This document shows positions 30,419-44,379 of a DNA stretch of 64,000 nt, piece by piece; the stretch's first letter is position 1, and each line of letters starts with the position of its first letter. The position numbers and the translations under genes were made by a program. The notes under the pieces are model-generated. The model did not search any database, was not told where the DNA came from, and worked only from the letters and a program-made list of their open reading frames with translations. The DNA is from a virus (lineage: Duplodnaviria; Caudoviricetes), in IMG/VR virus record IMGVR_UViG_3300035698_013504, positions 32,001-96,000 of that record, one strand, 5' to 3'.

Positions 30419-30946
30419 ATGCCTGGCGACATGACCCCCGGACAAATGTACGATCACGAGCTTAACCCCACGAAGGGGTGGCCGTCTCCGTACGCTATCG
30501 ATTACGCCGCAGCGGTCTCGGCCTCCGAGACCAATACGATTCAAGCTGGTATGGGCTGCTACCTGGACGCCAATGGCGAATTCAGGCTTGGTAGCTCCGC
30601 CGGTGCTGTCACGATCCTCATGCTTCAGAACGTGAATGACTTCGATGCGAACTCCGACGTCGGCAACATCTCCGGCGGCGTAATGAGCGGCTTGCCCTGT
30701 GTGGCCAGCTACGAAGTCTGGACGACCGAGTTCGTCGCTGGTAACTACGCCCCCAACGATTACCTCAAGATCGAAACCGCCGCTGGTAACATCGGCAAGG
30801 TCACTGAAGGCAACGCCTACATCGACCAGATCTGTGGTATCGTCTCGTTGGGTACGTTCAGCAACGAGCACCAGGTCAGCGTCCTGCAGTTCTGGACCTA
30901 TCACCTGCCGCCCATGAGTACGTCGAGCTCGTCTAGCTCCGCGTAG
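30419..30946 (+). CDS. Putative capsid decoration/cement protein
   Basis: AAGGAGG RBS; small beta-rich protein directly upstream of the MCP; C-terminal STSSSSSSA tail; function inferred from position. Confidence 0.55.
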   Translation: MPGDMTPGQMYDHELNPTKGWPSPYAIDYAAAVSASETNTIQAGMGCYLDANGEFRLGSSAGAVTILMLQNVNDFDANSDVGNISGGVMSGLPCVASYEVWTTEFVAGNYAPNDYLKIETAAGNIGKVTEGNAYIDQICGIVSLGTFSNEHQVSVLQFWTYHLPPMSTSSSSSSA

Positions 30947-31059: not shown

Positions 31060-31985
31060 ATGCCCGACCCGACCGCCAAAATGGTCAACGAGGCACTTCT
31101 GGACCGCCTCGCAGACGACGGCATGAAGAAGGAAGCGCAAGACGCCGTCACGGACTACGTTCGCATGAGAGTTCGTGAAGACGGCTTCCTCCGCCGTATT
31201 ATGAATCCCGTCCAGATCAGCAACGATCAGCTCGACCGTCAGGTCGACACCGACAAGCCGGTGAAGATCGTCGACATGGAGCCGGACAGCCCGGCCGCCC
31301 AGAGTGTTCCGTTCGCGACTCTGCCCTCCAACCGCTACATCCGCGGTCGGAGATGTCGAGTTATGTTCGACCGGATCGAAACTCCCCGCTTCACTAAGGA
31401 TGTTACCGAGCTCCGTACGTACGACATGGACATCCGTCAGGTCCTGTCGGACAACGCGATCAAGGACGTCCTGGCCGAAGAGGATGGCAAGTTGTTGCGG
31501 CCATCACGCAGATTCTCGGTTCGCAGGGAGCCACGGTCACCGAGACCGGCAGTATTCAGTGGCAGGCCATCAGTGGCGGTATCACCCGCGACACCATCGC
31601 CGACGCCATGAAGATTCTCCCCTCCACCCCGAGTCACCTTAACTGCGCGACCGTCCTGGTGAACAACATCACCATCTGGGACATCGTGAAGTGGGAACGG
31701 CCCGAAGTTGGTGGCGATCTCGCACAGGAAATCCTGATCAACGGTTTCGCCGAGCGTACCCTCATGGGTTGCCGGTGGATCATCACGATCAAGACTTCGC
31801 TCGTCCCGACGAACACTATCTTCCAGTTTGCCGAACCGAAGTTTATCGGCAAATTTTTCGTTTTGGAAGATACGACGATGTACATCGACAGAAAAGCTTT
31901 CATGCTCGAGTTCTTCGCCTATGAAGAGATCGGTTGCACGATCGCCAATGTCGCTTCCGTAGCTCGCGCCGACTTCACGGCGTAA
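31060..31985 (+). CDS. Major capsid protein (HK97-fold-like), reading frame interrupted by a 1-nt shift near 31490
   Basis: ORF 31060..31611 reads as MCP-like up to IRQVLSDNAIKDVLAEEDGK; the -1 frame is open from 31491 (VAAITQILGSQGATVTETGSIQWQAISGGITRDTIADA) into ORF 31608..31985; joined product about 308 aa; position after protease and scaffold. Confidence 0.7.
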
Positions 31986-32820: not shown

Positions 32821-32858
32821 GGGGCGGCTAGGATACTCTCTTAGCCGTCCCTTCTTTC
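32821..32858 (+). terminator. Rho-independent terminator closing the head module
   Basis: GGGGCGGCTAG / TTAGCCGTCCC stem followed by TTCTTT. Confidence 0.6.
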
Positions 32859-32871
32859 TAGAGGCGACAGG

Positions 32872-33267
32872 ATGAAACCGCAAACGTCGATGTCACGCGA
32901 GCGTGAGATAGGTATTGGCATCGCCGACGCCATCAGCACGGGCGATCAGGGGCCGTGGTCAGCGCCTATGCGGCGCACGGGCCGCGTTACCGCAGTTACC
33001 GCGAGTGTAAAGACGCCGTCCTCAGGGGCGGCTGTCGCCATTGCGGTCGAGATTAGCCACAACAACGGTCAAACCTGGACGAGCGTATTTACCACCAACC
33101 TGACGATTGACTCCGCGGAGAGATCCTCAGTATCGGCGGCAACACCCTATGTTATCAACGCGAACGCCAGCATCTACGCCTCTGGTGGCATCCTGCGTAT
33201 CAATATCATAGCCGCGGGCACAAACACCAGCGGCTTAAGCGTGCAAATCCACACGCTGGAGGATTAA
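32872..33267 (+). CDS. Beta-rich hypothetical protein, paralog of 33968..34465
   Basis: Shared block S.NG.TWTS.FTT.LTID..E.....A.P.VI. Confidence 0.7.
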   Translation: MKPQTSMSREREIGIGIADAISTGDQGPWSAPMRRTGRVTAVTASVKTPSSGAAVAIAVEISHNNGQTWTSVFTTNLTIDSAERSSVSAATPYVINANASIYASGGILRINIIAAGTNTSGLSVQIHTLED

Positions 33268-33269
33268 CG

Positions 33270-33968
33270 GTGGCACGGCACTTCAGAAACCCGCCGATCG
33301 TTCTAATTTGCACCCTGCTGCTACTCTTCGCAGGATGCTCTATGTTTTACGACAGTTACGTCAAAACTCCCACCGCTAGCTTCAAAGAGAAGTCTAAGAC
33401 CACGTTTCCCAGCGGCAAAGTTGAAGAGAAGGAGACGGAGACCAAAGCGGGCGGCGGGGTGTTTAAGGGTGATGCCGCGAAGAAGCTGAAGATCGGTAAG
33501 GTACAGGTAGATAAGGCCGGGGCAAAGACAGACCCATCCACTTTTGAGCAGTGGAAGCAGAAGGTTAAGGGTAAAGAGGTCTACATCCTTTACGGCGCCT
33601 GCGGACTCGTTATGGTAGTGGGTTGCGTTTTAGGGTATTATGCAGGTAGCTGGAAACTCAGCGTCGTAATCTGCGCCGGTGCAGGCGCGGGGATGGGAAC
33701 GATAGTTCTCTTCGAGGAGTACCCCTGGGTGGTTCTTCTTCCGGTTGCGTTCTTTATCGCGGCCGGAGTGTTCCTCTTGTGGCACCTCGCACGCGGTAAG
33801 TCGATTGTTCGCACCCTAGGTGTGGTCACCGGCGCCCTTGAAGACTTGGAGGACGACGACCCAAGAGCTGCTAAAGCCGCGAAGAAGAACATCCGTAGAC
33901 GTGCAGGATCGAAGGAATCGCTGGTCAAGCGCGATATCACAGTGGTTAAAAGGAAGTTGAGGATATAA
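33270..33968 (+). CDS. Predicted lipoprotein with C-terminal transmembrane helices
   Basis: Basic N-terminus, hydrophobic core and lipobox FAGC; about three hydrophobic segments in the C-terminal half; basic tail. Confidence 0.65.
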   Translation: MARHFRNPPIVLICTLLLLFAGCSMFYDSYVKTPTASFKEKSKTTFPSGKVEEKETETKAGGGVFKGDAAKKLKIGKVQVDKAGAKTDPSTFEQWKQKVKGKEVYILYGACGLVMVVGCVLGYYAGSWKLSVVICAGAGAGMGTIVLFEEYPWVVLLPVAFFIAAGVFLLWHLARGKSIVRTLGVVTGALEDLEDDDPRAAKAAKKNIRRRAGSKESLVKRDITVVKRKLRI

Positions 33969-34465
33969 TGGCTGATCGTCCGGCACTCATTTTACGCGAT
34001 ACCACTCAGTCGAGCATTAAGACGGGTGACCGCCTCGTCGACGCTGACGGCGTCCCCTACTCGCAGGGCGGTCAACGTCTTGTTGGTTTCGCGGCCAACG
34101 GCGCCTTTGCTACCGGCGATATCTCCCCGTGGTCCGGGCCGCTTTTGATTGCAGCAGCGACCGTAGATAGCGTCTCGGCATGTGTTAAGTCCGCGGCAAC
34201 GACTAATCCTGTTGAAATCGACGTGTTGATCAGCTCAGATAACGGCGCGACGTGGACATCTATCTTCACGACTACATTAACGATCGACGCCAGCGAGTTA
34301 ACGTCTACTACGGCCGCCGTACCCGCTGTAATCGATACGGCAAACAACACCATCAACGCTACAGACATGCTCCGTATTAATGTAGACGTTGCTGACGATG
34401 CAGAGGATCTTACCGTACAAATCGGTCTTGTGGACACAGCGTCGTCATCGTCGAGCTCGGCATAG
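33968..34465 (+). CDS. Beta-rich hypothetical protein with poly-Ser tail
   Basis: TAATG overlap; paralog of 32872..33267; ends TASSSSSSA. Confidence 0.7.
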   Translation: MADRPALILRDTTQSSIKTGDRLVDADGVPYSQGGQRLVGFAANGAFATGDISPWSGPLLIAAATVDSVSACVKSAATTNPVEIDVLISSDNGATWTSIFTTTLTIDASELTSTTAAVPAVIDTANNTINATDMLRINVDVADDAEDLTVQIGLVDTASSSSSSA

Positions 34466-34480
34466 AGGAGACTGACAGCT

Positions 34481-36982
34481 TTGTTATCATTCTTGGTCAA
34501 CTTCAGCGCAACGTCTTCCTCGAGTTCTTCGAGTAGCAACAGCTCGTCTTCAAGTAGCTGGAGTTCCTCGTCTTCGTCTAGTAGCTGGAGTTCCTCGTCT
34601 TCGTCAAGCAGCTGGAGCTCATCCTCTAGCAGCTCCTCCGACAGCAGCTCGTCGAGTAGCTGGAGTTCATCCTCTAGCAGCTCGTCTGACAGCAGCTCGT
34701 CGAGCTCGTCCTCTTGGAGTTCATCCTCGAGTAGCTCGAGTTACTCCACTGGCGCGGACCCGAACCTGGTGTTGTTCCTCCAGGCAGAAGGCGCGGATAA
34801 CGCCCGCGCGATTACCGACGACTCGATGTACGTGCATAGTGTCTACCCGCACGGTGAGCTGGACATAACAACAGATACGGCCGCCCTCGGTACCAGCGCC
34901 ATCTACTTTGACGGTAACACGCAAGAGCTCGTTACCTCACCAGACAGCACTGACTGGAACTTCAGCGGTGACTTCACCATTGAATGTTACGTGCGCTTTG
35001 AGGGCAACTCGATCGCGCAGAACCGCGGATTCCTTGCTCAGTACAAGAACAACACGAACTGTGATGCGCCGGATGCCGCATGGATGTTCTGCTTCCACTC
35101 GACTAAGGGGCTCTCATTCACCGCGTGGGATGGCGACACCGACAGTTACGTTATTCAGCAGCCCAACAACTCCGGCTGGGCCCTTAGCACATGGTACAAG
35201 ATCGCCGTTACACGCGAAGGCAATACTTGGAAGCTCTTCAGAGACACTACAGAGGTTGCTGTTGCAACCGACGCCCGCGTCCTTGAAGACGTGGCGGGTC
35301 CGCTTTACATTGGTAACTACGCTCCCACGAACAGTACGTGGAACTGGCAGGGTTACATGGACCACATCCGTGTCTGGAAGGGTGTCGCGCAGAATGAGGG
35401 TAACAGCTCCTCCAGCAGTAGCTCGTCTTACAGCGACGGTTGCCTGCCTCCTGGCTCAGGACCTTGTAACTTCTGCGATGAGGGTATCTGCGATACGTGC
35501 GACGAAGGCCCGTGCTGCACCGTCGACGAAATGGGCTGCATGTTCTGCGATCAGGGCGCTTGCTCCTCCTGTGACGAAGGCCTCTGCACTTCCTGTGACG
35601 AGGGTTCGTGTACTCGTTGTGACGAGAGTTTCTGTATGTCTTACGACGACCCGGTACTGGGCGCCTGTAACTTCTGCGATGACGGCAAGTGCTCCAGCAC
35701 CGACGAAGGTTCTTGCCGCCGCTGCGACGAGGCCGGGTGTACCCGTTGTGACGAAGCTCTCTGCACCGGCTGCGATGAAGGCCTTTGCACCGTAGCTGAC
35801 TCCGGTCGCTGCGTAGTCTGCGATGAGGGTACTTGCGCCAACTGTGACGAAGCTCTTGGTGGCGCCAACTGCTCAAGTTGTGACGAGAGTCCCTGTATCA
35901 GCTGTGATGAGACCAAGTGGAAGTGCCACAACTGTGACGAGGGTCTCTGCTCCAGGTGTGACCAGGGCGCTTGCTCCTCCTGTGATGAAGGCGCCTGCTC
36001 TAGCGCAGACGGCGGTTGCTGTACAAATACGGACGCAGGCGCATGTAACAACTGCGACGAGAACGAATGTTACCAGTGTGACGAAGTCGGCGGTTGTGCT
36101 GTCTGCGACGAGGGTTGCACTTCTTGTGACGAGGGCTGGTGTGGCACTTGTGACGAGGGTGACTGCAACCAGTGCGACGACGGCCCTTGCACTAGCTGTG
36201 ACGAAGGTCCTTGCATCAACGGCGACCAGGGCTTCTGCTCTGCGACCGACATCGGCCCGTGTCAGAGCTGTGACGAGGGTCCCTGCCTCCTCTGCGATGA
36301 GGGCGCCTGCACCAACGCCGATTACAACGAATGCTACCAGTGCGATGAAGAAGTCGGCTGCCCGTGGTGCGATGACGGCGGCTGCGACGTCTGCGATGAG
36401 GGATGTACCTACTGCGATGAAGGTCCCTGTATCAGCTGTGACGAAGCTGACTGCGACTCGTGTGACGAGGGTGACTGCGTCGCCTGTGACGAAGGCGCCT
36501 GCACTAACGGTGACAACGGCGCCTGCTCCAATTGTGACGAGGGTGTTTGCACGAACGGTGATCAGGGTACCTGTACCAACGGTGACCAGGGTGTTTGCTA
36601 CCAGTGCGATGAAAACGGCGGATGTACAGCCTGCGACGAAGGTTGCGCATCTTGTGACGAAGGCGACTGTACCAGTTGTGACGAGGGCGCTTGTAGCGTG
36701 GCTGACGCTGGCGCATGCTCGAGCTGCGACGAGGGCGCTTGTAGTTCCTGTGACCAGGGTGGTTGTGCCTCCTGCGACCAGGGCTGGTGTGGTACGTGTG
36801 ACGAAGGCGCCTGCAGCATGTGTGACGACGGACTTTGCACTTCGACGGATGAAGGTCCGTGTACCGTCTGTGACGAAGGTATGTGTGGTTCATGCGACGA
36901 GGGCTGGTGTGGTTCCTGCGACGAGGGTCCCTGCTCTCAGTGCGATGACGGCCTCTGTGCCGCCTGCGATGAATTCCCTTAA
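34481..36982 (+). CDS. Ser-rich linker, LamG/concanavalin-like domain and about 62 tandem C-x3-D repeats; putative radical SAM substrate
   Basis: GAGGAG RBS plus TTG; about 78-aa Ser/Trp tract; LamG-like DFTIEC.VRF, WYKIAVTR, YMDHIRVWKG; residues 329-833 are about 8-aa repeats C-x-x-(C)-D-E-G-x. Confidence 0.85.
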   Translation: MLSFLVNFSATSSSSSSSSNSSSSSSWSSSSSSSSWSSSSSSSSWSSSSSSSSDSSSSSSWSSSSSSSSDSSSSSSSSWSSSSSSSSYSTGADPNLVLFLQAEGADNARAITDDSMYVHSVYPHGELDITTDTAALGTSAIYFDGNTQELVTSPDSTDWNFSGDFTIECYVRFEGNSIAQNRGFLAQYKNNTNCDAPDAAWMFCFHSTKGLSFTAWDGDTDSYVIQQPNNSGWALSTWYKIAVTREGNTWKLFRDTTEVAVATDARVLEDVAGPLYIGNYAPTNSTWNWQGYMDHIRVWKGVAQNEGNSSSSSSSSYSDGCLPPGSGPCNFCDEGICDTCDEGPCCTVDEMGCMFCDQGACSSCDEGLCTSCDEGSCTRCDESFCMSYDDPVLGACNFCDDGKCSSTDEGSCRRCDEAGCTRCDEALCTGCDEGLCTVADSGRCVVCDEGTCANCDEALGGANCSSCDESPCISCDETKWKCHNCDEGLCSRCDQGACSSCDEGACSSADGGCCTNTDAGACNNCDENECYQCDEVGGCAVCDEGCTSCDEGWCGTCDEGDCNQCDDGPCTSCDEGPCINGDQGFCSATDIGPCQSCDEGPCLLCDEGACTNADYNECYQCDEEVGCPWCDDGGCDVCDEGCTYCDEGPCISCDEADCDSCDEGDCVACDEGACTNGDNGACSNCDEGVCTNGDQGTCTNGDQGVCYQCDENGGCTACDEGCASCDEGDCTSCDEGACSVADAGACSSCDEGACSSCDQGGCASCDQGWCGTCDEGACSMCDDGLCTSTDEGPCTVCDEGMCGSCDEGWCGSCDEGPCSQCDDGLCAACDEFP
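35465..36979 (+). repeat. Coding tandem repeat, about 24-nt (8-aa) period, consensus CxxCDEGx
   Basis: 62 units by manual count; Cys1 and Asp5 present in all, Cys4 replaced in 14. Confidence 0.9.
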
Positions 36983-36987
36983 CCTAG

Positions 36988-38295
36988 ATGGAGACCGATG
37001 GCATGGCAACAGAAACTCCAGTGATCTCAACGATTGACTTCAACCTATCCGACAGGTGTAACCTTCGTTGTGCCTTTTGCTACACGAAGGACGGCCACGG
37101 CAATGGCCCTGACATGGAGAGGACAAAGCGCATCTTGACGTGGTACTACGATCAGCTCCGCGTCGGAATTGAAAAGAACCCGCAGCGCCGGAAGGTGGCG
37201 AGCTTGAACATCTACGGCGGCGAACCTCTTATGGAGTGGGATAGCCTGCAGGAGACTGTAGCGTGGATTCAAGAGAACCATGGCGATCTTCAGCTCAAGG
37301 CCGGTGTCGTGACCAACATGGTGCTACTTGACGAAAAGAAGCTCGACTGGCTGATGGACAACCGCATTGGTATCCACCCATCAATCGACGGGTGTGCCGC
37401 TGCGGAGGATACTCACCGCGTGTTCCCCGACGGGTCTGGCGCCAGCAAGTTTGTATACGATAATGCGCGGCGGCTGATTAGCCGTACGAAAGGCCGCAGC
37501 TGTCGTATGACGATTTCCCCAGAGACCGTGCCACATATCTTTGAGAGCATTAAGTTTCTCTGCGAGGATATTGGGTTCCACACCGTTAACGCCATTCTGG
37601 CTGGCGGCGCTGAGTGGACACCTTCGAACCTTGACGCTGTTAAGGCGCAGACCATACAAGTTACGGATTGGTGGCTTGAAAAGATGCGAGAAGGCGAGCA
37701 TTATTCCCTCTACTACTTGAGGAACATGTTCAAAGGTATACAGGACAGCAAGCGGCGGCGAAGCCTGTGTTCGTCAGGCATAAGCCGCGTTGGTGTTGAC
37801 ACCAACGGCGATCTATGGCCCTGTCACCGGTTCTGCAACCAGTCCGCGCAGTCTGAATATAAGCTGGGTACCATCGAGACAGGGTTTACCAACCTTGTGC
37901 TATACGAAAAGCTGAAGAACTACGACATTGCGGCAAGCATGAGCGAGAAGTGCAGTACGTGCCCCGCCGTTATGGGGTGCCACGCTCTCTGCCTTCACGA
38001 GATGATGGTCGCGGAGCGGGGGATGTTTACGCCGAACAATCACTACTGCTACATCTGGCCCTTCTACTGGAACGAGGCGATGCGTGCCCATTCCATTATG
38101 ACGGCCGAGAGGAACAAGCTGTACGAAAAGATGTACTGCAGCGGTGACGACAACCGCCGTCCGCAATCACGACAGCGCCCTGCGCGACAGAACCAAGGTT
38201 CGCGCCCGACGATGATGGAGAGAATGGAAAAACTCGAGGGCGAAGTGTCCGGAATCAAAAGTTGTGGGGCTTGCTCCTGCACGCCCCCGAAATAA
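36988..38295 (+). CDS. Radical SAM enzyme with SPASM domain (putative peptide/protein maturase)
   Basis: CNLRCAFC (CxxxCxxC), YGGEPL, SIDG; SPASM Cys pattern CSSG...GDLWPC...CSTC-x5-C-x3-C...C; 5 nt downstream of the Cys-rich gene. Confidence 0.92.
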   Translation: METDGMATETPVISTIDFNLSDRCNLRCAFCYTKDGHGNGPDMERTKRILTWYYDQLRVGIEKNPQRRKVASLNIYGGEPLMEWDSLQETVAWIQENHGDLQLKAGVVTNMVLLDEKKLDWLMDNRIGIHPSIDGCAAAEDTHRVFPDGSGASKFVYDNARRLISRTKGRSCRMTISPETVPHIFESIKFLCEDIGFHTVNAILAGGAEWTPSNLDAVKAQTIQVTDWWLEKMREGEHYSLYYLRNMFKGIQDSKRRRSLCSSGISRVGVDTNGDLWPCHRFCNQSAQSEYKLGTIETGFTNLVLYEKLKNYDIAASMSEKCSTCPAVMGCHALCLHEMMVAERGMFTPNNHYCYIWPFYWNEAMRAHSIMTAERNKLYEKMYCSGDDNRRPQSRQRPARQNQGSRPTMMERMEKLEGEVSGIKSCGACSCTPPK

Positions 38296-38899: not shown

Positions 38900-39715
38900 G
38901 TGGTACGAATGAGTTTTGCACAAGACTGTATAGACGCTGGATCTAACCTGGCTGAAGTACCTGTTATGCAGATCGGCCAGCGTACGGCCGGTACGGCAGC
39001 CCTGACGATCAAGACTGCAGATGGCGCCCCGTATGACCTTACAGGGAAGACTGTGCAATTCATCGCCAAAGAGTTGTACACGGATAACGTCTCGTACATC
39101 GACAAGGCAATGACCATCGTCAGTGCCGTTGATGGCGAGGTCACGCTTGCGTATGGCACATCTGACTCCAAGTACGCCGGGGCGTGGGTAGCCCAGGCAA
39201 CAGTTAGGGACAGCGGCACCAACGAGTATATCTACCCGGTGTACTTCTATGTACGCACCTCCCTTGACTCGTTGACCTCTGAACTCGTAGGCGTACCGAA
39301 TATCTACGAGATCCGCCTGGCTATGCGCGATACCTCGGCTGTGGATAACTATCTGCTGGATGACGTCGAGTTCAGAGATGAAGAGATTATCGCCGTGATT
39401 CGCTGGCCGATCGATCAGTGGAACGAGACACCGCCCCCGGTACAGCGTTACACTCCCGCGAGCTTCCCGTGGCGCTACCACTGGATTCGTGCGATTGTTG
39501 GACACCTGTTGGAGATCAAAGCGCACAACTATCGCCGCAACCGCATGGACTACCAGGTTCAGGGCGGCCACGTTGACGATAAGAACAAAGCCGACAGCTA
39601 CGAGAAGCGGGCTAATGAGCTCATCTCGGAGTGGAAGGAGTGGATGATGCATACCAAGCTTACACTCAATATGAACCGCGGTTGGGGTACAGTAGGCTCT
39701 GGTGTGTATCGATAG
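38900..39715 (+). CDS. Putative head-tail adaptor/neck protein
   Basis: Beta-rich N-terminal domain plus helical domain IYEIRLAMRD...YPWRYHW-like; position before neck and sheath genes (alternative ATG 38909). Confidence 0.5.
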   Translation: MVRMSFAQDCIDAGSNLAEVPVMQIGQRTAGTAALTIKTADGAPYDLTGKTVQFIAKELYTDNVSYIDKAMTIVSAVDGEVTLAYGTSDSKYAGAWVAQATVRDSGTNEYIYPVYFYVRTSLDSLTSELVGVPNIYEIRLAMRDTSAVDNYLLDDVEFRDEEIIAVIRWPIDQWNETPPPVQRYTPASFPWRYHWIRAIVGHLLEIKAHNYRRNRMDYQVQGGHVDDKNKADSYEKRANELISEWKEWMMHTKLTLNMNRGWGTVGSGVYR

Positions 39716-39733: not shown

Positions 39734-40666
39734 GTGAGTAATGTGGATTGCAACATCTTCAGTAGAGTTAGCGTTGACGCATGGGTTCCCGGCGATTCTG
39801 TTGTCTATTGGAGCCTGCGCCCAGATTTTACCTACACGGGCGACGTCCACTTCTACGTAGACCACGCACGTCCTGGCGGCGATTGGACATGCTTGAACCC
39901 GGAAGACCCGGTGATCAACGCCTGCGCCTTCACCGACGGGGATAAGCGTAACTGGGGTACACAACCGCAGAGTTACTACCGTGTTCGTATGGTGAATCCC
40001 CCGGGCGGAGACACTTACGTATCTCAGCCCCAGTCCATCTTTGGTAACCTCAACCGCAACGACTGGCTGCTCGTACGTGAAGCCGCAAGACAGAAGTACC
40101 TTGAGTACGCTAAGGGTGACGGCCAGCTTGGCTGGTTGCTCAAACGCCGTCGATGGGGCACCGAGTGTCCAGATTGTCTTGACTGGGACACGGGTGAGCG
40201 TACGAACTACAACTGTGACCGCTGTTTTGGTACTGGAATCCTCTACGGGTTCTTTCCGTCCATCGCCGTACCCATGGCTATTAGGGGCCGTGCCCCACGC
40301 CGTAAGGTAACGCAGGAGCAGGTCGGGGTCATGGATCCTAAGACGGTGAAGGCGGAGTGTGTAGCATACCCGATGATCGAGACGGAAGACGTATGGGTCG
40401 ATGCAGATACGGGCGAGCGCTTCTTTATTCAGACAATCGACGTCCAGTCATCCATCCGCGGCGTACCACTTACATACGCGTCTGAGCTTCGCCTTGCCCC
40501 GTATACACACATTATCTACACAATACCGCTGGAGGGCGCGGAGGCCCGAAGTAGCTCTTCCGCTTCCAGCGTCTCGTCGAGCAGCAGCGGCTGGTCTTCA
40601 AGTAGTAGCTCACGAACGCTGGTTCAGCGCGAGTGGCGGCAAGGGTTATCCGACGACGAGTGGTGA
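39734..40666 (+). CDS. Putative neck/head-closure protein with CxxC...CxxC zinc motif
   Basis: CPDC...CDRCFGTG; position; C-terminal Ser/Trp tract. Confidence 0.55.
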   Translation: MSNVDCNIFSRVSVDAWVPGDSVVYWSLRPDFTYTGDVHFYVDHARPGGDWTCLNPEDPVINACAFTDGDKRNWGTQPQSYYRVRMVNPPGGDTYVSQPQSIFGNLNRNDWLLVREAARQKYLEYAKGDGQLGWLLKRRRWGTECPDCLDWDTGERTNYNCDRCFGTGILYGFFPSIAVPMAIRGRAPRRKVTQEQVGVMDPKTVKAECVAYPMIETEDVWVDADTGERFFIQTIDVQSSIRGVPLTYASELRLAPYTHIIYTIPLEGAEARSSSSASSVSSSSSGWSSSSSSRTLVQREWRQGLSDDEW

Positions 40667-41568: not shown

Positions 41569-44379
41569 ATGCCTAGCTACATTCTTCCGCAGGCGCTGGT
41601 GTATCAGGAGTTCAATGAAACACCTACCGCTATCACCGAGCCGTTGCGTGCCTGTATCGTCGGGCCTCAGTATGACCTGTTCAGGTACGGCACCGCCGCT
41701 GAGAAGGCCCTAACGGACCTCGGAGCCTACGACCCCTCGACGGACACGTGCTACAGTTGGCCCGGTCGCGCTGCGGGTTCGGTCGTCGACACCACGTACA
41801 CGAAGGTCTACATCGACGACGCACTTCTGCAGTACTACCATGACCCTGTGGGCAGCTTGTCCACGGTTGCGTCACCGGCCGGAACGCCTAAGAACCGTAT
41901 TCGTTCCGACACGCTGGCGTTTAAGACGGGTAACGGCACCTCACGTAGCGCCGCCTTCTATGATCGCGACGTTGCTGTTGGTGACGTGATTCAGCTGACC
42001 AGCACCGCCTGTAGCCGTACGACCTCGTTGCTTAGCACGGTCATTGGCCTTGTTGCCGACGAAGTTGCGGACGTCATCGCGAGTCCTCTTGTTTCGTCTG
42101 GTAACCAGGGCACGCTCGTTGCATCGAGCAGCATCTCGCAGTCGGCTGGTACCGTCAGTGACGTATGGGCGGCTATCGACGCGACCTCCTACCTCGGCCT
42201 CTACGATGGCGATCCGTCTGAGACGTACACGATCACCGTTGTTGAAGCTTCGGTAGCCGAAGACGCCACAACCGCCGAACTTTCCGTCGTAAGCACCAGT
42301 GGAAACGATGACGTGGCTCAGGTTACACCCGCCGCCTTCGGTTCGCCGACGACGATCGGTACTCGTGGCTTGACGGTCACCTTTGACAACTCTGGCGCCG
42401 CTGGCGGTAGCTCGAGTTCGAGTTCTTCGGGCGATACCTACCAGGACGACTTCATCGTCGGCCAGGTTTGGGTTGCTGCTGTTCAGGAAACATACGCTGC
42501 CCCCGTCGTGGCCTCGAGTGGCGACTACACCGGCTCTGCCGACGATGTCTACATCATCGAATGCACGACTGGCGGGTACTTCGCAGGTACAAAACCTCAG
42601 GTTACCTGCTACAACGCTAGTGGTACGGACATGAGTGGTCCCACGACAGTGACGACCGCCGTTGCCTTCGCCGCAGGCACCCAGGGCGTGACAGCCACTA
42701 TCACCGGCTCGTACATGAGCAAGGGTGACATGTGGACCGTCGCGGTCACTGCTGCTACGTCTGGCCCCTTCAGAACGCTCGTGTTGGCGAACAACCTCAC
42801 GGACGAGATGTTGGGCGAGTGCAGCGGATGGGATACAGGCAGCTCCAGCTCTTCGAGCTCTAGCTACTCCCCTGGCGATGTAGACCTCAAGCTCTACATC
42901 AAGAAGGATATCCAGGTCACCGAGCAACGCACAGGTGTCCCCGGTACGTACAACTGGACTCAGAGCGCTACCCAGATCTGCACGGAAGATGGAATCACCG
43001 CCTACGACTCCACGTGGGTCAACGGCTCAACGCTTCTTCCGCTGACAGTACAGGGTGGTACCGTCTACGTTGAGTACCGAGCACTTGTTCCGATCGGCGC
43101 CTCGTCTGTCGGTAGTGTCATCGACGTTAGTGAAATTCCGGCCGCTGTCGGTACGATCGACGTTGATAACCCCATCTCTTACGGGGTGTACAAGGCCGTT
43201 AGCAACGCAAACGGTACACCCGTTAAGTATCTCAACATCGCCACCGACGACACTGCCGGTTGGACGAATGCACTTGAGATCCTCAACGGTACGGATCAGG
43301 TCTACGGCCTTGTGCCGGTGACGTGGGACGAAACCGTTCAGGACCTCTTTGCCGCTCACGTGGCCACGATGTCTGCCGCGACCGAAGCCAAATGGCGCAT
43401 GACATGGCTCAGTACTCCCATGGCGTCCACCTACGGCCTCGTCACGACGAACGCAAGCGCCACCACCCTGTTGGCCACGATCGAGGACGATCCTGATGCC
43501 GCGGGTACCCAGTACACACTCCTGACGGGTGTTAACAGCGAGTTCCGCACCGACGCCGTTCGTGCCGGTGACACGGTTCGCTGCAAATACTCCGGTGACG
43601 GTTGGAGTGGTGTCTCTTATGAGGAGTATCTGGTTGACAGCGTTGTCAACGAAGACACCCTTCGCCTTTACAGTGGCCCCTCAACCCCGACGGCTACGCC
43701 CTCTAAGATTGAGATTTGGCGTACCCGTACGAAGGATGAGCAGGCTAGCTACATCGCCACTAAGAGTGGAGCTTTCGCCTCCAGCCGTGTCATTAACGTA
43801 TGGCCGGACTACCCGATCGTTAGTAGCGTATCGGTGGCCGGTTACTACTTGTGCGCCGCGCTGGCCGGGTTGAAGTCCGGTGTTGTGCCTCACCAGGGTC
43901 TGACGGACGTCCAAGTCGCTGGCTTTGACGACATGACTCGCACCACCGAGTACTTCACGTATGCACAGCTCAACACAATGGCCGCTGCTGGCACTTGGAT
44001 CGTTACGCAGGACCCCGACGTTGGTACCGTCTACACTCGTCACCAGTTGACGACGGATATGACGAGTACCAATACGAAGGAACTCAGCGTCACGACCAAC
44101 GTGGACAGCATCAGCTACATTATGAAGTCTGCGTTAGAGCCCTATATCGGCCGAGGTAACGTGACGGACACGATGCTTTCGTTGATTCGTAAAGAGGTTA
44201 CCGACGCACTTGAATATCTGCAGAACAATATTACGGTTGACCGTCTTGGGGCACAACTCAATATCGGATCAATTCGTACCATTGCTCAGCACGCCACACT
44301 GTTGGACAGAATCACGGTCATCGTTGACCTTGAATTGCCGTACCCGCTTAACAACATCGAGGTTCACCTGGTCGTATAA
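41569..44379 (+). CDS. Tail sheath protein (contractile tail)
   Basis: AGGAGG RBS; C-terminal sheath-like region CAALAGL...PHQGLT...LNTMAAAGTWIV...ELSVTTNVD; followed by a tube-sized gene; two poly-Ser inserts. Confidence 0.85.
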   Translation: MPSYILPQALVYQEFNETPTAITEPLRACIVGPQYDLFRYGTAAEKALTDLGAYDPSTDTCYSWPGRAAGSVVDTTYTKVYIDDALLQYYHDPVGSLSTVASPAGTPKNRIRSDTLAFKTGNGTSRSAAFYDRDVAVGDVIQLTSTACSRTTSLLSTVIGLVADEVADVIASPLVSSGNQGTLVASSSISQSAGTVSDVWAAIDATSYLGLYDGDPSETYTITVVEASVAEDATTAELSVVSTSGNDDVAQVTPAAFGSPTTIGTRGLTVTFDNSGAAGGSSSSSSSGDTYQDDFIVGQVWVAAVQETYAAPVVASSGDYTGSADDVYIIECTTGGYFAGTKPQVTCYNASGTDMSGPTTVTTAVAFAAGTQGVTATITGSYMSKGDMWTVAVTAATSGPFRTLVLANNLTDEMLGECSGWDTGSSSSSSSSYSPGDVDLKLYIKKDIQVTEQRTGVPGTYNWTQSATQICTEDGITAYDSTWVNGSTLLPLTVQGGTVYVEYRALVPIGASSVGSVIDVSEIPAAVGTIDVDNPISYGVYKAVSNANGTPVKYLNIATDDTAGWTNALEILNGTDQVYGLVPVTWDETVQDLFAAHVATMSAATEAKWRMTWLSTPMASTYGLVTTNASATTLLATIEDDPDAAGTQYTLLTGVNSEFRTDAVRAGDTVRCKYSGDGWSGVSYEEYLVDSVVNEDTLRLYSGPSTPTATPSKIEIWRTRTKDEQASYIATKSGAFASSRVINVWPDYPIVSSVSVAGYYLCAALAGLKSGVVPHQGLTDVQVAGFDDMTRTTEYFTYAQLNTMAAAGTWIVTQDPDVGTVYTRHQLTTDMTSTNTKELSVTTNVDSISYIMKSALEPYIGRGNVTDTMLSLIRKEVTDALEYLQNNITVDRLGAQLNIGSIRTIAQHATLLDRITVIVDLELPYPLNNIEVHLVV

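What the first reader, a model, noticed from the sequence alone, without database searches (positions are those of the whole stretch)
34481..38295. Phage radical SAM/SPASM maturase next to a giant protein with about 62 tandem C-x3-D motifs
Seen: residues 329-833 of the 833-aa protein are about 62 repeats with about 8-aa period. Cys1 and Asp5 are present in every unit. The apparent second Cys (position 4) is replaced by T/A/G/V/Y in 14 units (e.g. CSSTD, CTVAD, CTNGD, CINGD), so the conserved pattern is C-x3-D rather than a CxxC metal site. The gene 5 nt downstream is a radical SAM enzyme with a full SPASM Cys set. Established: the ranthipeptide maturase PapB (freyrasin, Paenibacillus polymyxa) forms Cys-S to Asp-beta-carbon thioethers at C-x3-D motifs. 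Inference: this is a phage-encoded RiPP-like system acting on a large protein inside the virion-gene region, potentially adding dozens of thioether staples to a fibre-like domain attached to a LamG domain. I know of no described system of this size or context.
Basis: partly seen in the sequence, partly recalled or inferred. Interest (0 to 1): 0.92.

Follow-up and report, generated by a model that had tools for sequence, protein, structure and literature searches.

The report
Phage enzyme that staples a cysteine-repeat fibre
A 200-kb phage from salt-lake metagenomes encodes, among its virion genes, a large protein with 62 eight-residue Cys-x3-Asp repeats. Next to it is a radical-SAM enzyme of the thioether-forming (PapB/CteB) kind, and this two-gene pair recurs in many uncultured phages, so the enzyme very probably cross-links the repeat domain, which has not been described for any virus.

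Summary
Gene 34481-36982 encodes 833 aa: a poly-Ser linker, a LamG domain, and 505 aa of 8-residue units with consensus C-x-x-C-D-[EQ]-G-x. Gene 36988-38295 is a radical SAM/SPASM enzyme. It has CX3CX2C and seven conserved auxiliary Cys, and it has no RRE.

**Enzyme.** Its best NCBIfam model is PapB (170.7 bits, below the 340 cutoff), then QhpD. Its best PDB match, by sequence and by fold, is CteB.

**Pairing.** Among rSAM homologues at 44% identity or more with usable flanks, 15 of 16 distinct loci carry an adjacent protein with the same 8-aa repeat. Searching from the repeat domain also finds the same rSAM family next door in 2 of 3 informative cases. No third gene is shared. The non-repeat domains of the repeat proteins differ between loci.

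**Repeat.** With registers set independently, Cys1 is kept in 97% of units, Asp5 in 95% and Cys4 in about 60%. Cys4 co-varies strongly with Glu/Gln at position 6, which hints at a second pair.

**Verdict.** This is a conserved enzyme-substrate module, and Cys-to-Asp thioether stapling of a probable virion fibre is the best reading. No chemistry has been shown. The closest precedents are PapB/PapA, QhpD/QhpC and CrpC/CrpA (2026). This scan has noted the same theme, phage rSAM plus Cys-repeat proteins with other repeat types, on other DNA. I found no publication on it.

The parts
34466..34471 (+). Shine-Dalgarno-like AGGAGA, 9 nt before the TTG start of the repeat-protein gene. It lies directly after the TAG stop of the upstream in-frame gene.
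   Evidence: Sequence read.
34481..36982 (+). Gene for the 833-aa candidate substrate (P0001): poly-Ser linker, LamG domain, Cys/Asp repeat domain.
   Evidence: It is the only C-x3-D-rich ORF in the 200.9-kb genome.
34481..34750 (+). N-terminal roughly 90 aa, poly-Ser punctuated by W/D/N (flexible linker; possibly glycosylated).
   Evidence: Translation. 27- and 48-nt imperfect tandem repeats.
34922..35386 (+). LamG / concanavalin-A-like lectin domain (aa 148-302).
   Evidence: PF13385, E 1.7e-14, 54.7 bits against cutoff 27.6. phrog_24074 and virion structural protein PHROGs match the same stretch.
35465..36979 (+). Repeat domain, aa 329-833: 62 units of 8 aa, consensus C-x-x-C-D-[E/Q]-G-x. 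Cys1 and Asp5 are invariant, Cys4 is present in 48 units and Gly7 in about 75% of units.
36988..38295 (+). Radical SAM/SPASM enzyme (P0002, 435 aa; possibly starting at ATG 37003). PapB/QhpD/CteB-like, with no RRE domain.
37057..37080 (+). CX3CX2C radical-SAM cluster motif (C24, C28, C31).
   Evidence: At least 90% conserved in alignment A1.
37768..38049 (+). SPASM domain with seven invariant Cys (C261, C279, C322, C325, C331, C335, C354). This implies two auxiliary 4Fe-4S clusters, one with an open site.
   Evidence: TIGR04085, 40.2 bits against cutoff 27. Invariant columns in A1. C283 is not conserved (pattern PCHRF[CAN]).
32821..32851 (+). Context only. A 13-bp terminator-like hairpin that may mark the start of the transcription unit containing the pair. 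No terminator-like site separates the two genes.
   Evidence: This is a consensus scan, not evidence of function.
32872..34465 (+). Context only. Two paralogous small beta-rich proteins (32872-33267, 33968-34465) flank a lipoprotein-like membrane protein (33270-33968). They are not shown to belong to the module.
   Evidence: Both paralogues hit phrog_11315 and phrog_34854. No Pfam hits. They are not shared with other loci.

Best explanation
A two-gene enzyme-substrate module sits in the virion-gene region of a jumbo phage.

**The enzyme.** The radical SAM/SPASM enzyme (36988-38295) acts in the host cytoplasm on the C-terminal 505-aa repeat domain of the protein encoded just upstream (34481-36982). 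In each 8-residue unit it most likely abstracts a hydrogen from the beta-carbon of Asp5. It then joins that carbon to the sulfur of Cys1 held on the open iron of auxiliary cluster I. This is the ranthionine (Cys-S to Asp-C-beta) chemistry of PapB and QhpD. Each link makes a five-residue macrocycle, giving up to about 62 rings in a row.

The enzyme has no RRE and the substrate has no leader. Recognition is therefore probably of the repeated motif itself, read unit after unit.

**A possible second link.** Units that also carry Cys4 nearly always carry Glu/Gln/Asp at position 6. A second, overlapping link (Cys4 to residue 6) per unit is possible.

**The product.** It would be a non-reducible, protease-resistant rod or spacer carrying a LamG lectin-type domain on a poly-Ser tether. 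It is most likely an exposed virion fibre or decoration.

**Shown:** the gene pair, the motifs, the family placement, the conserved pairing across phages, and the residue conservation and covariation.

**Inferred:** that the enzyme modifies this protein, the type and regiochemistry of the link, the number of links, and virion location.
For: **Enzyme.**
- The best NCBIfam model is PapB: 170.7 bits for P0002, and the top model for all 30 family members with best E 3.2e-75. QhpD, nif11-type, CXXX-repeat and SCIFF maturases follow. anSME scores only 73 bits.
- CteB is the best PDB hit by sequence (E 1.4e-21) and by fold (TM 0.68-0.71; model pLDDT 88.3).
- Seven, not eight, conserved SPASM Cys. This is as described for CrpC, where it leaves an open iron for a substrate Cys (PMC13692751).

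**Pairing.**
- Distinct loci whose rSAM is at least 44% identical to P0002 and that have usable flanks: L003, L004, L006, L066-L069, L071-L074, L076-L078 carry an adjacent 8-aa-period C-x3-D ORF. Only L001/L002 does not.
- L008, with a 37% identical rSAM, also has the repeat ORF.
- Reverse search: among 1.84 billion representative proteins the repeat domain finds only 66 hits, of which about 18 are true 8-aa repeat proteins.
- Two of those are followed by an rSAM 37% and 40% identical to P0002.
- Only these two gene families are shared among 15 loci.
- The partner's other domains differ between loci: LamG, LVIVD beta-propeller, PT/PS linkers, a Tat signal, a C-terminal membrane anchor, or none. 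The repeat is what travels with the enzyme.

**Motif.**
- Anchoring on G-x-C, position 5 is Asp in 279 of 294 units and position 4 is Cys in 173 of 294.
- Anchoring on D-x-G, position 1 is Cys in 268 of 275 units.
- In L003, 41 of 53 units lack Cys4 yet all keep Cys1 and Asp5.
- PapB targets C-x3-D/E, tolerates any intervening residues, and works without its RRE or a leader in vitro (PMC10739248; PMC12715619).
- Covariation: with Cys4 present, position 6 is E/Q/D in 222 of 224 units. With Cys4 absent it is E/Q/D in 35 of 138. Fisher p = 1.6e-44, and the direction is the same in every locus that has units without Cys4.

**Virion context.**
- The gene lies between the major head protein (31060-31985) and a BppU_N-type tail/baseplate gene (38900-39715).
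- In L072 the pair follows the major head protein.
- In L198 the repeat protein follows the tape measure gene.
Against: - No experiment exists; everything rests on sequence and gene neighbourhood.
- P0002 scores half the PapB cutoff and is not a PapB equivalog, so its regiochemistry cannot be read from homology.
- One close rSAM homologue (L001/L002, 47% identity) has no repeat gene within 7 kb and is flanked by TnpB genes.
- One LamG-bearing repeat protein (P0062) has no rSAM within 6 kb.
- The complex prediction of enzyme with a 48-aa repeat fragment gave no verdict (score 0.02).
- The repeat domain gave no confident fold (pLDDT 39).
- C-x2-C-x4-C-x2-C spacing could also bind Zn or Fe, and conserved D-x-G could bind Ca.
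- Virion incorporation is not shown. No PHROG or Pfam structural family covers the repeat part.
- The repeat units used for the Fisher test are not independent.
Confidence: 0.6

Rival explanations
1. The enzyme does modify the repeat domain, but with other chemistry. Possibilities are a sactionine (S to alpha-carbon) link, a link from Cys to a different acceptor (position 6 Glu/Gln, or Gly7), or a non-cross-linking change such as epimerisation or Cys oxidation.
For: P0002 is below the cutoff of every characterised family. Sactisynthases, epimerases and anSME share the fold. The Cys4 to E/Q6 covariation shows that residues other than Asp5 matter. CrpA's proposed motif is C-x-x-Q/D.
Against: The best-scoring families are those that link Cys to Asp/Glu side chains, PapB and QhpD. 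The sactisynthase RumMC scores 63 bits and anSME 73 bits. Asp5 is the one acceptor-type residue kept in 95% of units. It is almost never Glu or Asn (1 each of 294), which fits a requirement for the Asp beta-carbon.
Confidence: 0.2
2. The repeat domain is an unmodified metal-binding or disulfide-stabilised module (CxxC knuckles binding Zn or Fe; D-x-G binding Ca). The neighbouring rSAM acts on something else, or uses the repeat protein only as an Fe-S or metal donor.
For: C-x2-C-x4-C-x2-C spacing resembles zinc knuckles. The domain is 22% Cys and 15% Asp. The phage comes from salt-lake samples, where acidic, cation-binding surfaces are common. The genome has at least five other rSAM-like ORFs, so rSAM genes here are not all linked to this protein.
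Against: Cys4 is missing in 38% of 362 units and in 41 of 53 units of L003, which would break CxxC sites, while Cys1 and Asp5 persist. The pairing of this particular rSAM clade with this particular repeat holds across very different phages and partner architectures, and nothing else is shared. This is hard to explain without a direct functional link.
Confidence: 0.1
3. The pair is a real enzyme-substrate module, but the product is not a virion part. It would be a released or host-surface protein made during infection, for example an adhesin, a metal scavenger or a shield.
For: Related repeat proteins carry a Tat signal (L068) or a C-terminal membrane anchor (L069, L071). The nearest cellular relatives, in Planctomycetota MAGs, are Tat-exported, C-terminally anchored Cys-repeat proteins. 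No structural PHROG covers the repeat part.
Against: P0001 has no signal peptide. It lies inside the head-to-tail structural block. Its LamG stretch matches PHROGs annotated as virion structural protein. In L198 the homologue occupies the tail-fibre position after the tape measure gene, and in L072 it follows the major head protein.
Confidence: 0.15

Closest known systems
PapB/PapA (freyrasin ranthipeptide system, Paenibacillus polymyxa; NCBIfam NF047865)
   Same: rSAM/SPASM enzyme. It is the best-scoring model for P0002 and its whole clade. The substrate motif is C-x3-D/E, repeated six times in PapA, and it forms Cys-S to Asp-C-beta thioethers. PapB is indifferent to the intervening residues and active without RRE or leader in vitro (PMC10739248, PMC12715619).
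   Different: P0002 scores 170.7 bits against a cutoff of 340 and has no RRE (PapB residues 1-86). The substrate is an 833-aa multidomain protein with 62 motifs, not a short leader-plus-core peptide. No protease or exporter is present. The context is phage virion genes.
CteB/CteA (SCIFF/thermocellin; PDB 5WGG, 5WHY)
   Same: Closest solved structure by sequence (E 1.4e-21) and by fold (TM about 0.7). It is a thioether-forming rSAM with a SPASM domain.
   Different: About 20% identity. The alignment starts at CteB residue 94, so the RRE is absent in P0002. The SCIFF model scores 114 bits against a cutoff of 425.
QhpD/QhpC (quinohemoprotein amine dehydrogenase maturation; TIGR03906)
   Same: Second-best model (147 bits). 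It installs Cys-Asp and Cys-Glu thioethers in a protein subunit rather than in a natural-product peptide (as summarised in PMC13692751).
   Different: QhpD makes three links in a small subunit, uses an RRE-leader interaction, and is part of a periplasmic enzyme. The cutoff of 453 bits is not reached.
CrpC/CrpA (Methanococcus voltae; TIGR04463; PMC13692751, Sept 2026)
   Same: An rSAM/SPASM enzyme with seven SPASM Cys that installs ranthionine-type links on a full-size protein carrying a tandem Cys repeat encoded next to it. It is the only experimental precedent for this logic on a repeat protein.
   Different: CrpC has an RRE and CrpA has a leader-like N-terminus. CrpA has a 17-aa repeat in 10 copies with a C-x-x-Q/D motif. 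It is archaeal and cellular. The TIGR04463 model matches the phage clade only weakly (14 of 30 members, best E 3.1e-18).
CXXX-repeat peptide system (TIGR04115 maturase) and other phage rSAM plus Cys-repeat modules noted earlier in this scan
   Same: rSAM/SPASM next to Cys-repeat proteins, some in phage tail-fibre modules (scan notes). Distant viral relatives in my own loci show period-3 and other Cys repeats (L018, L040, L026, L048).
   Different: TIGR04115 scores 115 bits against a cutoff of 350. The repeat here has period 8 with an invariant Asp and is not matched by any Pfam or NCBIfam model.

Membership tests
Radical SAM superfamily with SPASM domain | CX3CX2C motif for the SAM-binding 4Fe-4S cluster; Radical_SAM HMM above threshold | tested here: met
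   C24/C28/C31. PF04055, 40.2 bits against 29.5. The motif is at least 90% conserved in 30 homologues.
Radical SAM superfamily with SPASM domain | C-terminal SPASM Cys set (CX9-15GX4C ... CX2CX5CX3C ... C) for two auxiliary clusters | tested here: met
   C261...G274-x4-C279; C322-x2-C325-x5-C331-x3-C335; C354. All are invariant. TIGR04085 scores 40.2 against 27. Pfam SPASM scores 20.6, just under its 21.5 cutoff.
Radical SAM superfamily with SPASM domain | Partial TIM-barrel plus SPASM fold | tested here: met
   AF2 model with pLDDT 88.3. Top PDB matches are CteB, anSME and ChlB, with probability 1.00.
PapB family ranthipeptide maturase (NF047865, equivalog) | Whole-protein HMM score at or above the curated cutoff (340 bits) | tested here: not met
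   170.7 bits. It is the best of all models but only half the cutoff.
PapB family ranthipeptide maturase (NF047865, equivalog) | N-terminal RiPP recognition element (PapB residues 1-86) engaging a leader peptide | tested here: not met
   CX3CX2C begins at residue 24. The median in 45 homologues is residue 16. The alignment to CteB starts at CteB residue 94. The first structural element of the model is the core beta-strand 15-19.
PapB family ranthipeptide maturase (NF047865, equivalog) | Adjacent substrate with C-x3-D/E motifs | tested here: met
   62 in-register motifs in the gene 5 nt upstream. The same holds in homologous loci.
PapB family ranthipeptide maturase (NF047865, equivalog) | Substrate is a short leader-plus-core precursor peptide that is released as a natural product | tested here: not met
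   The substrate candidate is an 833-aa LamG-bearing protein. No protease or exporter is shared among loci.
Ranthionine-forming rSAM systems in the broad sense (PapB, CteB, QhpD, CrpC) | Enzyme-dependent thioether between Cys sulfur and a non-alpha carbon of the acceptor residue | not testable with these tools
   Needs anaerobic reconstitution, mass spectrometry and NMR.
Ranthionine-forming rSAM systems in the broad sense (PapB, CteB, QhpD, CrpC) | Seven-Cys SPASM leaving an open iron on auxiliary cluster I for the substrate Cys | tested here: met
   Exactly seven SPASM Cys are invariant. The eighth candidate (C283) varies as C/A/N. The interpretation follows PMC13692751.
CrpC family (TIGR04463) | HMM score at or above the cutoff (525 bits); RRE present | tested here: not met
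   Not among the 25 best models listed for P0002. Only 14 of 30 clade members match, best E 3.1e-18. No RRE.
CXXX-repeat target maturase (TIGR04115) | HMM score at or above 350 bits; substrate with a Cys every fourth residue | tested here: not met
   115.1 bits. The repeat period here is 8, with Cys spacing 3 then 5.
Anaerobic sulfatase maturase (TIGR03942) | HMM score at or above 349 bits; eight SPASM Cys | tested here: not met
   73.3 bits. Seven conserved Cys.
Phage virion structural protein (for the 833-aa protein) | Presence in purified particles | not testable with these tools
   Only positional evidence is available. The gene lies between the major head protein and a BppU_N-type gene. 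The homologue in L198 follows the tape measure gene.

The most novel reading that the evidence does not exclude
Uncultured phages of salt-lake, sediment and digester-type habitats build an exposed virion fibre whose long C-terminal domain is turned into a chain of enzymatically made thioether macrocycles. There would be one Cys1-Asp5 ring per 8 residues, plus in most units a second, overlapping Cys4 to Glu/Gln6 ring. That makes roughly 60 to 110 covalent staples in one protein. They would be installed by a leader- and RRE-independent radical SAM enzyme that reads the repeat itself. This would be the most heavily cross-linked ribosomal protein known, and the first enzymatic thioether cross-linking of a virus particle.
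Probability: 0.3. Interest if true: 0.92.

Novelty: new variant of a known kind. Interest (0 to 1): 0.82.

Why it matters
If confirmed, RiPP-type radical chemistry would be shown to harden or shape a virus structural protein, not only to make small peptides.

It would extend the very recent finding of rSAM thioethers on a full-size archaeal protein to phages, to arrays six times longer, and to an enzyme that naturally lacks the RRE. That makes the enzyme attractive as a leader-independent, repeat-reading macrocyclase.

It would also give a reason why phages in anoxic or reducing brines and sediments carry SPASM enzymes: thioethers, unlike disulfides, survive reductants.

The Cys4 to Glu/Gln6 covariation gives a concrete prediction, two ring types per unit, that mass spectrometry can test directly.

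Tried and rejected
1. **Complex prediction.** Enzyme (1-390) with three 4Fe-4S, SAM and repeat fragment 738-785. Score 0.02, no verdict, controls not run. This is not evidence either way.
2. **AlphaFold2 of repeat residues 329-560** with an 18-row alignment of repeat regions. pLDDT 39, no fold. The ESM Atlas model is also poor (pLDDT 0.50), with only weak beta-solenoid look-alikes.
3. **Pfam, NCBIfam and PHROGs on the repeat parts** of ten proteins. No family matched.
4. **GenBank phage collection.** No close relative of the enzyme (27% identity or less; Campylobacter CP220-like phages 23%) and none of the repeat.
5. **Species-representative genomes.** The nearest enzyme relatives are only 28-29% identical, and the top five are Planctomycetota MAGs. 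This is a weak hint about the host.
6. **TAG read-through.** I considered read-through joining the upstream in-frame 165-aa gene to P0001. I rejected it as unnecessary: a good SD and a TTG start follow the stop, another gene also ends in the same poly-Ser-Ala tail, and the window reads cleanly in code 11.
7. **Third conserved partner** (discrete RRE, protease, transporter). None is shared among 15 loci.
8. **Labelled phylogeny** with PapB, CteB, QhpD and anSME. Not done, because no reference sequences were available as session objects. HMM score ranking was used instead.
9. **Literature.** Searches for phage plus ranthipeptide/SPASM/thioether found no description of such a system.

Full report
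**1. What is in the sequence**

The ORF at 34481-36982 (+) starts at TTG. An AGGAGA lies 9 nt upstream, just after the TAG stop of the preceding in-frame gene. It encodes 833 aa (P0001).

- Residues 1-90 are poly-Ser interrupted by W, D and N.
- Residues 148-302 are a LamG/concanavalin-like domain (PF13385, E 1.7e-14).
- Residues 329-833 are a run of 8-residue units with consensus C-x-x-C-D-[E/Q]-G-x.

There are 66 C-x3-D matches, 62 of them in one register, and 48 successive spacings of exactly 8 residues. Shuffling the same residues gives 16.6 +/- 3.4 matches and 0.43 such spacings. Position 4 is Cys in 48 matches and G/A/T/V/Y/P in the rest.

All 58 strictly in-register units differ at the DNA level (mean 56% identity). 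Cys1 and Asp5 are each written with both synonymous codons (TGC 35 / TGT 23; GAC 40 / GAT 18). Tandem Repeats Finder sees only short, 65-80% matching 24-nt arrays. The repeat is therefore old and kept by selection on the protein. It is not a slippage or assembly artefact.

The next gene, 36988-38295, starts 5 nt after the stop. A second ATG at 37003 has a better-placed GGAGA. It encodes a 435-aa radical SAM enzyme (P0002). It has C24-x3-C28-x2-C31 and the SPASM Cys set C261, C279, C322, C325, C331, C335, C354.

**2. Genome context**

The window belongs to a single 200,903-bp contig with identical 127-bp ends, which indicates a complete assembly.

- It encodes multisubunit RNA polymerase pieces.
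- It has a major head protein at 31060-31985.
- It has a BppU_N-type baseplate domain at 38900-39715.
- All genes lie on one strand.

It is a jumbo phage, and the pair sits inside the structural block. A strong terminator-like hairpin lies at 32821-32851, and none lies between the two genes. P0001 is the only C-x3-D-rich ORF in the genome. The DNA is held by salt-lake metagenome runs from six studies.

**3. The enzyme**

Against NCBIfam the best model is PapB (170.7 bits). Then come QhpD (147), the nif11-type maturase (137), the CXXX-repeat maturase (115) and the SCIFF maturase (114). anSME scores 73, and the sactisynthase RumMC 63. No curated cutoff is reached.

The same ranking holds across 30 homologues, with the PapB model best at E 3.2e-75. 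CrpC's family, TIGR04463, matches only 14 of 30 members and only weakly.

The closest solved structure by sequence is CteB (E 1.4e-21). P0002 residues 11-336 align to CteB residues 94-417, so the RRE of CteB has no counterpart.

An AlphaFold2 model (pLDDT 88.3) starts directly with the core strand. It matches CteB best (TM 0.68-0.71), then anSME and ChlB.

In 45 homologues the CX3CX2C motif starts at a median of residue 16. The whole clade therefore lacks an RRE.

Exactly seven SPASM Cys are invariant. For CrpC this pattern is read as three ligands on auxiliary cluster I plus an open iron for a substrate Cys (PMC13692751).

**4. Is the pairing conserved?**

*Starting from the enzyme.* A protein search gave 46 homologues at 29-56% identity, many on long contigs. 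Scans of viral, metagenome and genome collections gave 194 loci.

Among distinct loci whose enzyme is at least 44% identical to P0002 and whose flanks are informative, 15 carry an adjacent ORF with the same 8-residue C-x3-D repeat. These are L003, L004, L006, L066, L067, L068, L069, L071, L072, L073, L074, L076, L077 and L078. In L073 the repeat ORF is convergent and cut by the contig end; it equals P0071. L008, with a 37% identical enzyme, also has one.

The one clear exception is L001/L002, where the enzyme is flanked by TnpB genes. L065 is too short to judge.

*Starting from the repeat.* A full HMMER scan of 1.84 billion representative proteins found only 66 hits, of which about 18 are true 8-residue repeat proteins. 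Of three with informative context:
- P0061 (1270 aa) follows the tape measure gene in a 60.8-kb phage contig and is followed by an rSAM 37% identical to P0002.
- P0068 is followed by an rSAM (40% identical) fused to a capsule-synthesis domain.
- P0062 (LamG-bearing, 144-kb contig, no DNA available) has no rSAM within 6 kb.

An all-against-all comparison of ORFs in 15 loci finds only two shared families, the enzyme and the repeat protein.

The partner's remaining architecture differs between loci:
- LamG here and in P0062.
- An LVIVD beta-propeller in L003.
- Almost nothing but repeats in L004.
- PT- or PS-rich linkers in L006, L074 and P0064.
- A twin-arginine signal in L068.
- A C-terminal membrane anchor in L069 and L071.
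- A C-terminal domain in L072.

The repeat is a portable module that travels with the enzyme.

**5. Which residues matter?**

The register was set without using the residues under test.
- Anchoring on G-x-C, position 5 is Asp in 279 of 294 units (Glu once, Asn once), and position 4 is Cys in 173 of 294.
- Anchoring on D-x-G, position 1 is Cys in 268 of 275 units.
- In L003, 41 of 53 units lack Cys4 but all keep Cys1, Asp5 and mostly Gly7.

One new observation came out of this. When Cys4 is present, position 6 is Glu, Gln or Asp in 222 of 224 units. When Cys4 is absent, it is in only 35 of 138. The Fisher p-value is 1.6e-44, though the units are not independent. The direction is the same in every locus that has units without Cys4. 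Cys4 and residue 6 therefore behave as a second, optional pair.

**6. Mechanism proposed**

*Established.*
- PapB makes Cys-S to Asp-C-beta links at C-x3-D/E.
- It accepts any intervening residues.
- It works on leaderless peptides, and it works after deletion of its RRE in vitro (PMC10739248; PMC12715619).
- QhpD makes Cys-Asp and Cys-Glu links in a protein subunit.
- CrpC puts ranthionine links on a 28.8-kDa repeat protein (PMC13692751).

*Inference.* P0002 binds one unit at a time, with Cys1 on the open iron of auxiliary cluster I. It abstracts the Asp5 beta-hydrogen with the 5'-deoxyadenosyl radical and closes a five-residue ring. It then moves along the array. A second ring, Cys4 to residue 6, is possible in about three quarters of the units.

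The product would be a redox-insensitive, protease-resistant rod bearing a LamG domain on a Ser-rich tether. Its position in the structural block here, after the head protein in L072, and after the tape measure gene in L198 suggests an exposed virion fibre or decoration.

**7. Rivals**

See the Rival explanations section. In brief, they are another chemistry on the same substrate, an unmodified metal- or disulfide-stabilised module, and a non-virion product. The metal rival is weakened because Cys4 is dispensable and because the gene pairing is so strict. The non-virion rival keeps some weight because related repeat proteins carry export signals.

**8. Comparison and novelty**

P0002 is not a member of the PapB, QhpD, SCIFF, CXXX-repeat, CrpC or anSME families by their curated thresholds. 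It forms its own RRE-less clade, found only in uncultured viral and metagenomic contigs.
- No GenBank phage has a relative above 27% identity.
- The nearest cellular relatives are 28-29% identical, mostly in Planctomycetota MAGs. There they sit next to Tat-exported proteins with a six-residue C-x3-[D/N]-x repeat.
- The repeat matches no Pfam or NCBIfam model.

The chemistry class is known, and a protein-sized precedent now exists. I therefore rate this a new variant of a known kind, not a categorically new one.

I found no paper describing rSAM cross-linking of phage proteins. Earlier notes of this scan report the same theme with other repeat types in other phage genomes. Those are unpublished AI notes and are not independent evidence.

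**9. Limits**

There is no chemistry, no proteomics and no labelled phylogeny. The complex and repeat-fold predictions were uninformative. Counts of loci depend on contig ends, and some loci are duplicates of one contig in two collections. I counted those once.

Noticed in passing
window 31060-31985: The major head protein gene appears split by a frame change near 31495-31510. The N-terminal part reads in the frame of 31060. The C-terminal part, which matches phrog_2522, reads in the frame of 31062. I did not resolve whether this is an assembly indel or a programmed shift.
   Followed up: partly
whole genome G000 (genome coordinates 146242-147318, 166184-167107, 170713-171756, 174229-175872, 196514-197509): At least five further ORFs carry a CX3CX2C motif in a radical-SAM-like position, so this phage may encode six rSAM enzymes. 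The genome is one 200,903-bp contig with identical 127-bp ends.
   Followed up: no
window 32872-33267 and 33968-34465: Two paralogous small beta-rich proteins both hit phrog_11315 and phrog_34854. They flank a lipoprotein-like membrane protein (33270-33968) inside the structural block. The second paralogue is in frame with P0001 and separated from it by one TAG.
   Followed up: partly
window 30419-30946, 33968-34465, 39734-40666, 41569-44379: Several structural-region proteins end in, or contain, poly-Ser tracts of the same kind as the P0001 N-terminus. Nine ORFs with Ser runs occur genome-wide.
   Followed up: no
L003 10530-13385; L074 3937-5772 and 8558-10069; L199 5331-10450: In three other loci, glycosyltransferase and methyltransferase genes lie directly beside the rSAM/repeat pair. 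In L199 the rSAM is fused to a Capsule_synth domain. This hints that these surface proteins are also glycosylated.
   Followed up: no
L144 4932-6122, L147 3076-4407, L148 8227-9177 (Planctomycetota MAGs): PapB-like rSAM genes (L147: 220.7 bits to the PapB model) sit next to proteins with a twin-arginine signal, a long six-residue C-x3-[D/N]-x repeat and a C-terminal hydrophobic anchor. This looks like a cellular cousin of the phage module, and no NCBIfam model covers it.
   Followed up: partly
L018 6786-7933, L040 5984-7930, L026 6530-7978, L048 10812-11918, L152 3420-4408, L156 6379-7005: More distant viral and cellular rSAM/SPASM genes (22-27% identity) sit beside other kinds of Cys-repeat proteins. 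These include period-3 CxxCxxC arrays, CxxCDxDx arrays and CSCNSDCADGCGSD-type arrays. The enzyme-plus-Cys-array logic is therefore much broader than this clade.
   Followed up: no
L044 7477-7629: A 51-aa ORF with a leader-like N-terminus and six C-x3-D motifs lies just upstream of a distant viral rSAM (21% identity). This is a classical peptide-sized ranthipeptide-like precursor on a viral contig.
   Followed up: no
P0124 (L201 720-1577): A variant repeat, C-A-P-L-D-A-A-L, has period 8 and keeps Cys1 and Asp5 but has neither Cys4 nor Gly7. The contig is too short to see neighbours.
   Followed up: no
L001 2976-3770 and 8306-9463: The one close rSAM homologue without a repeat partner is flanked by two TnpB/Cas12f-like genes on a 194-kb contig. 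This suggests it was moved away from its partner.
   Followed up: no
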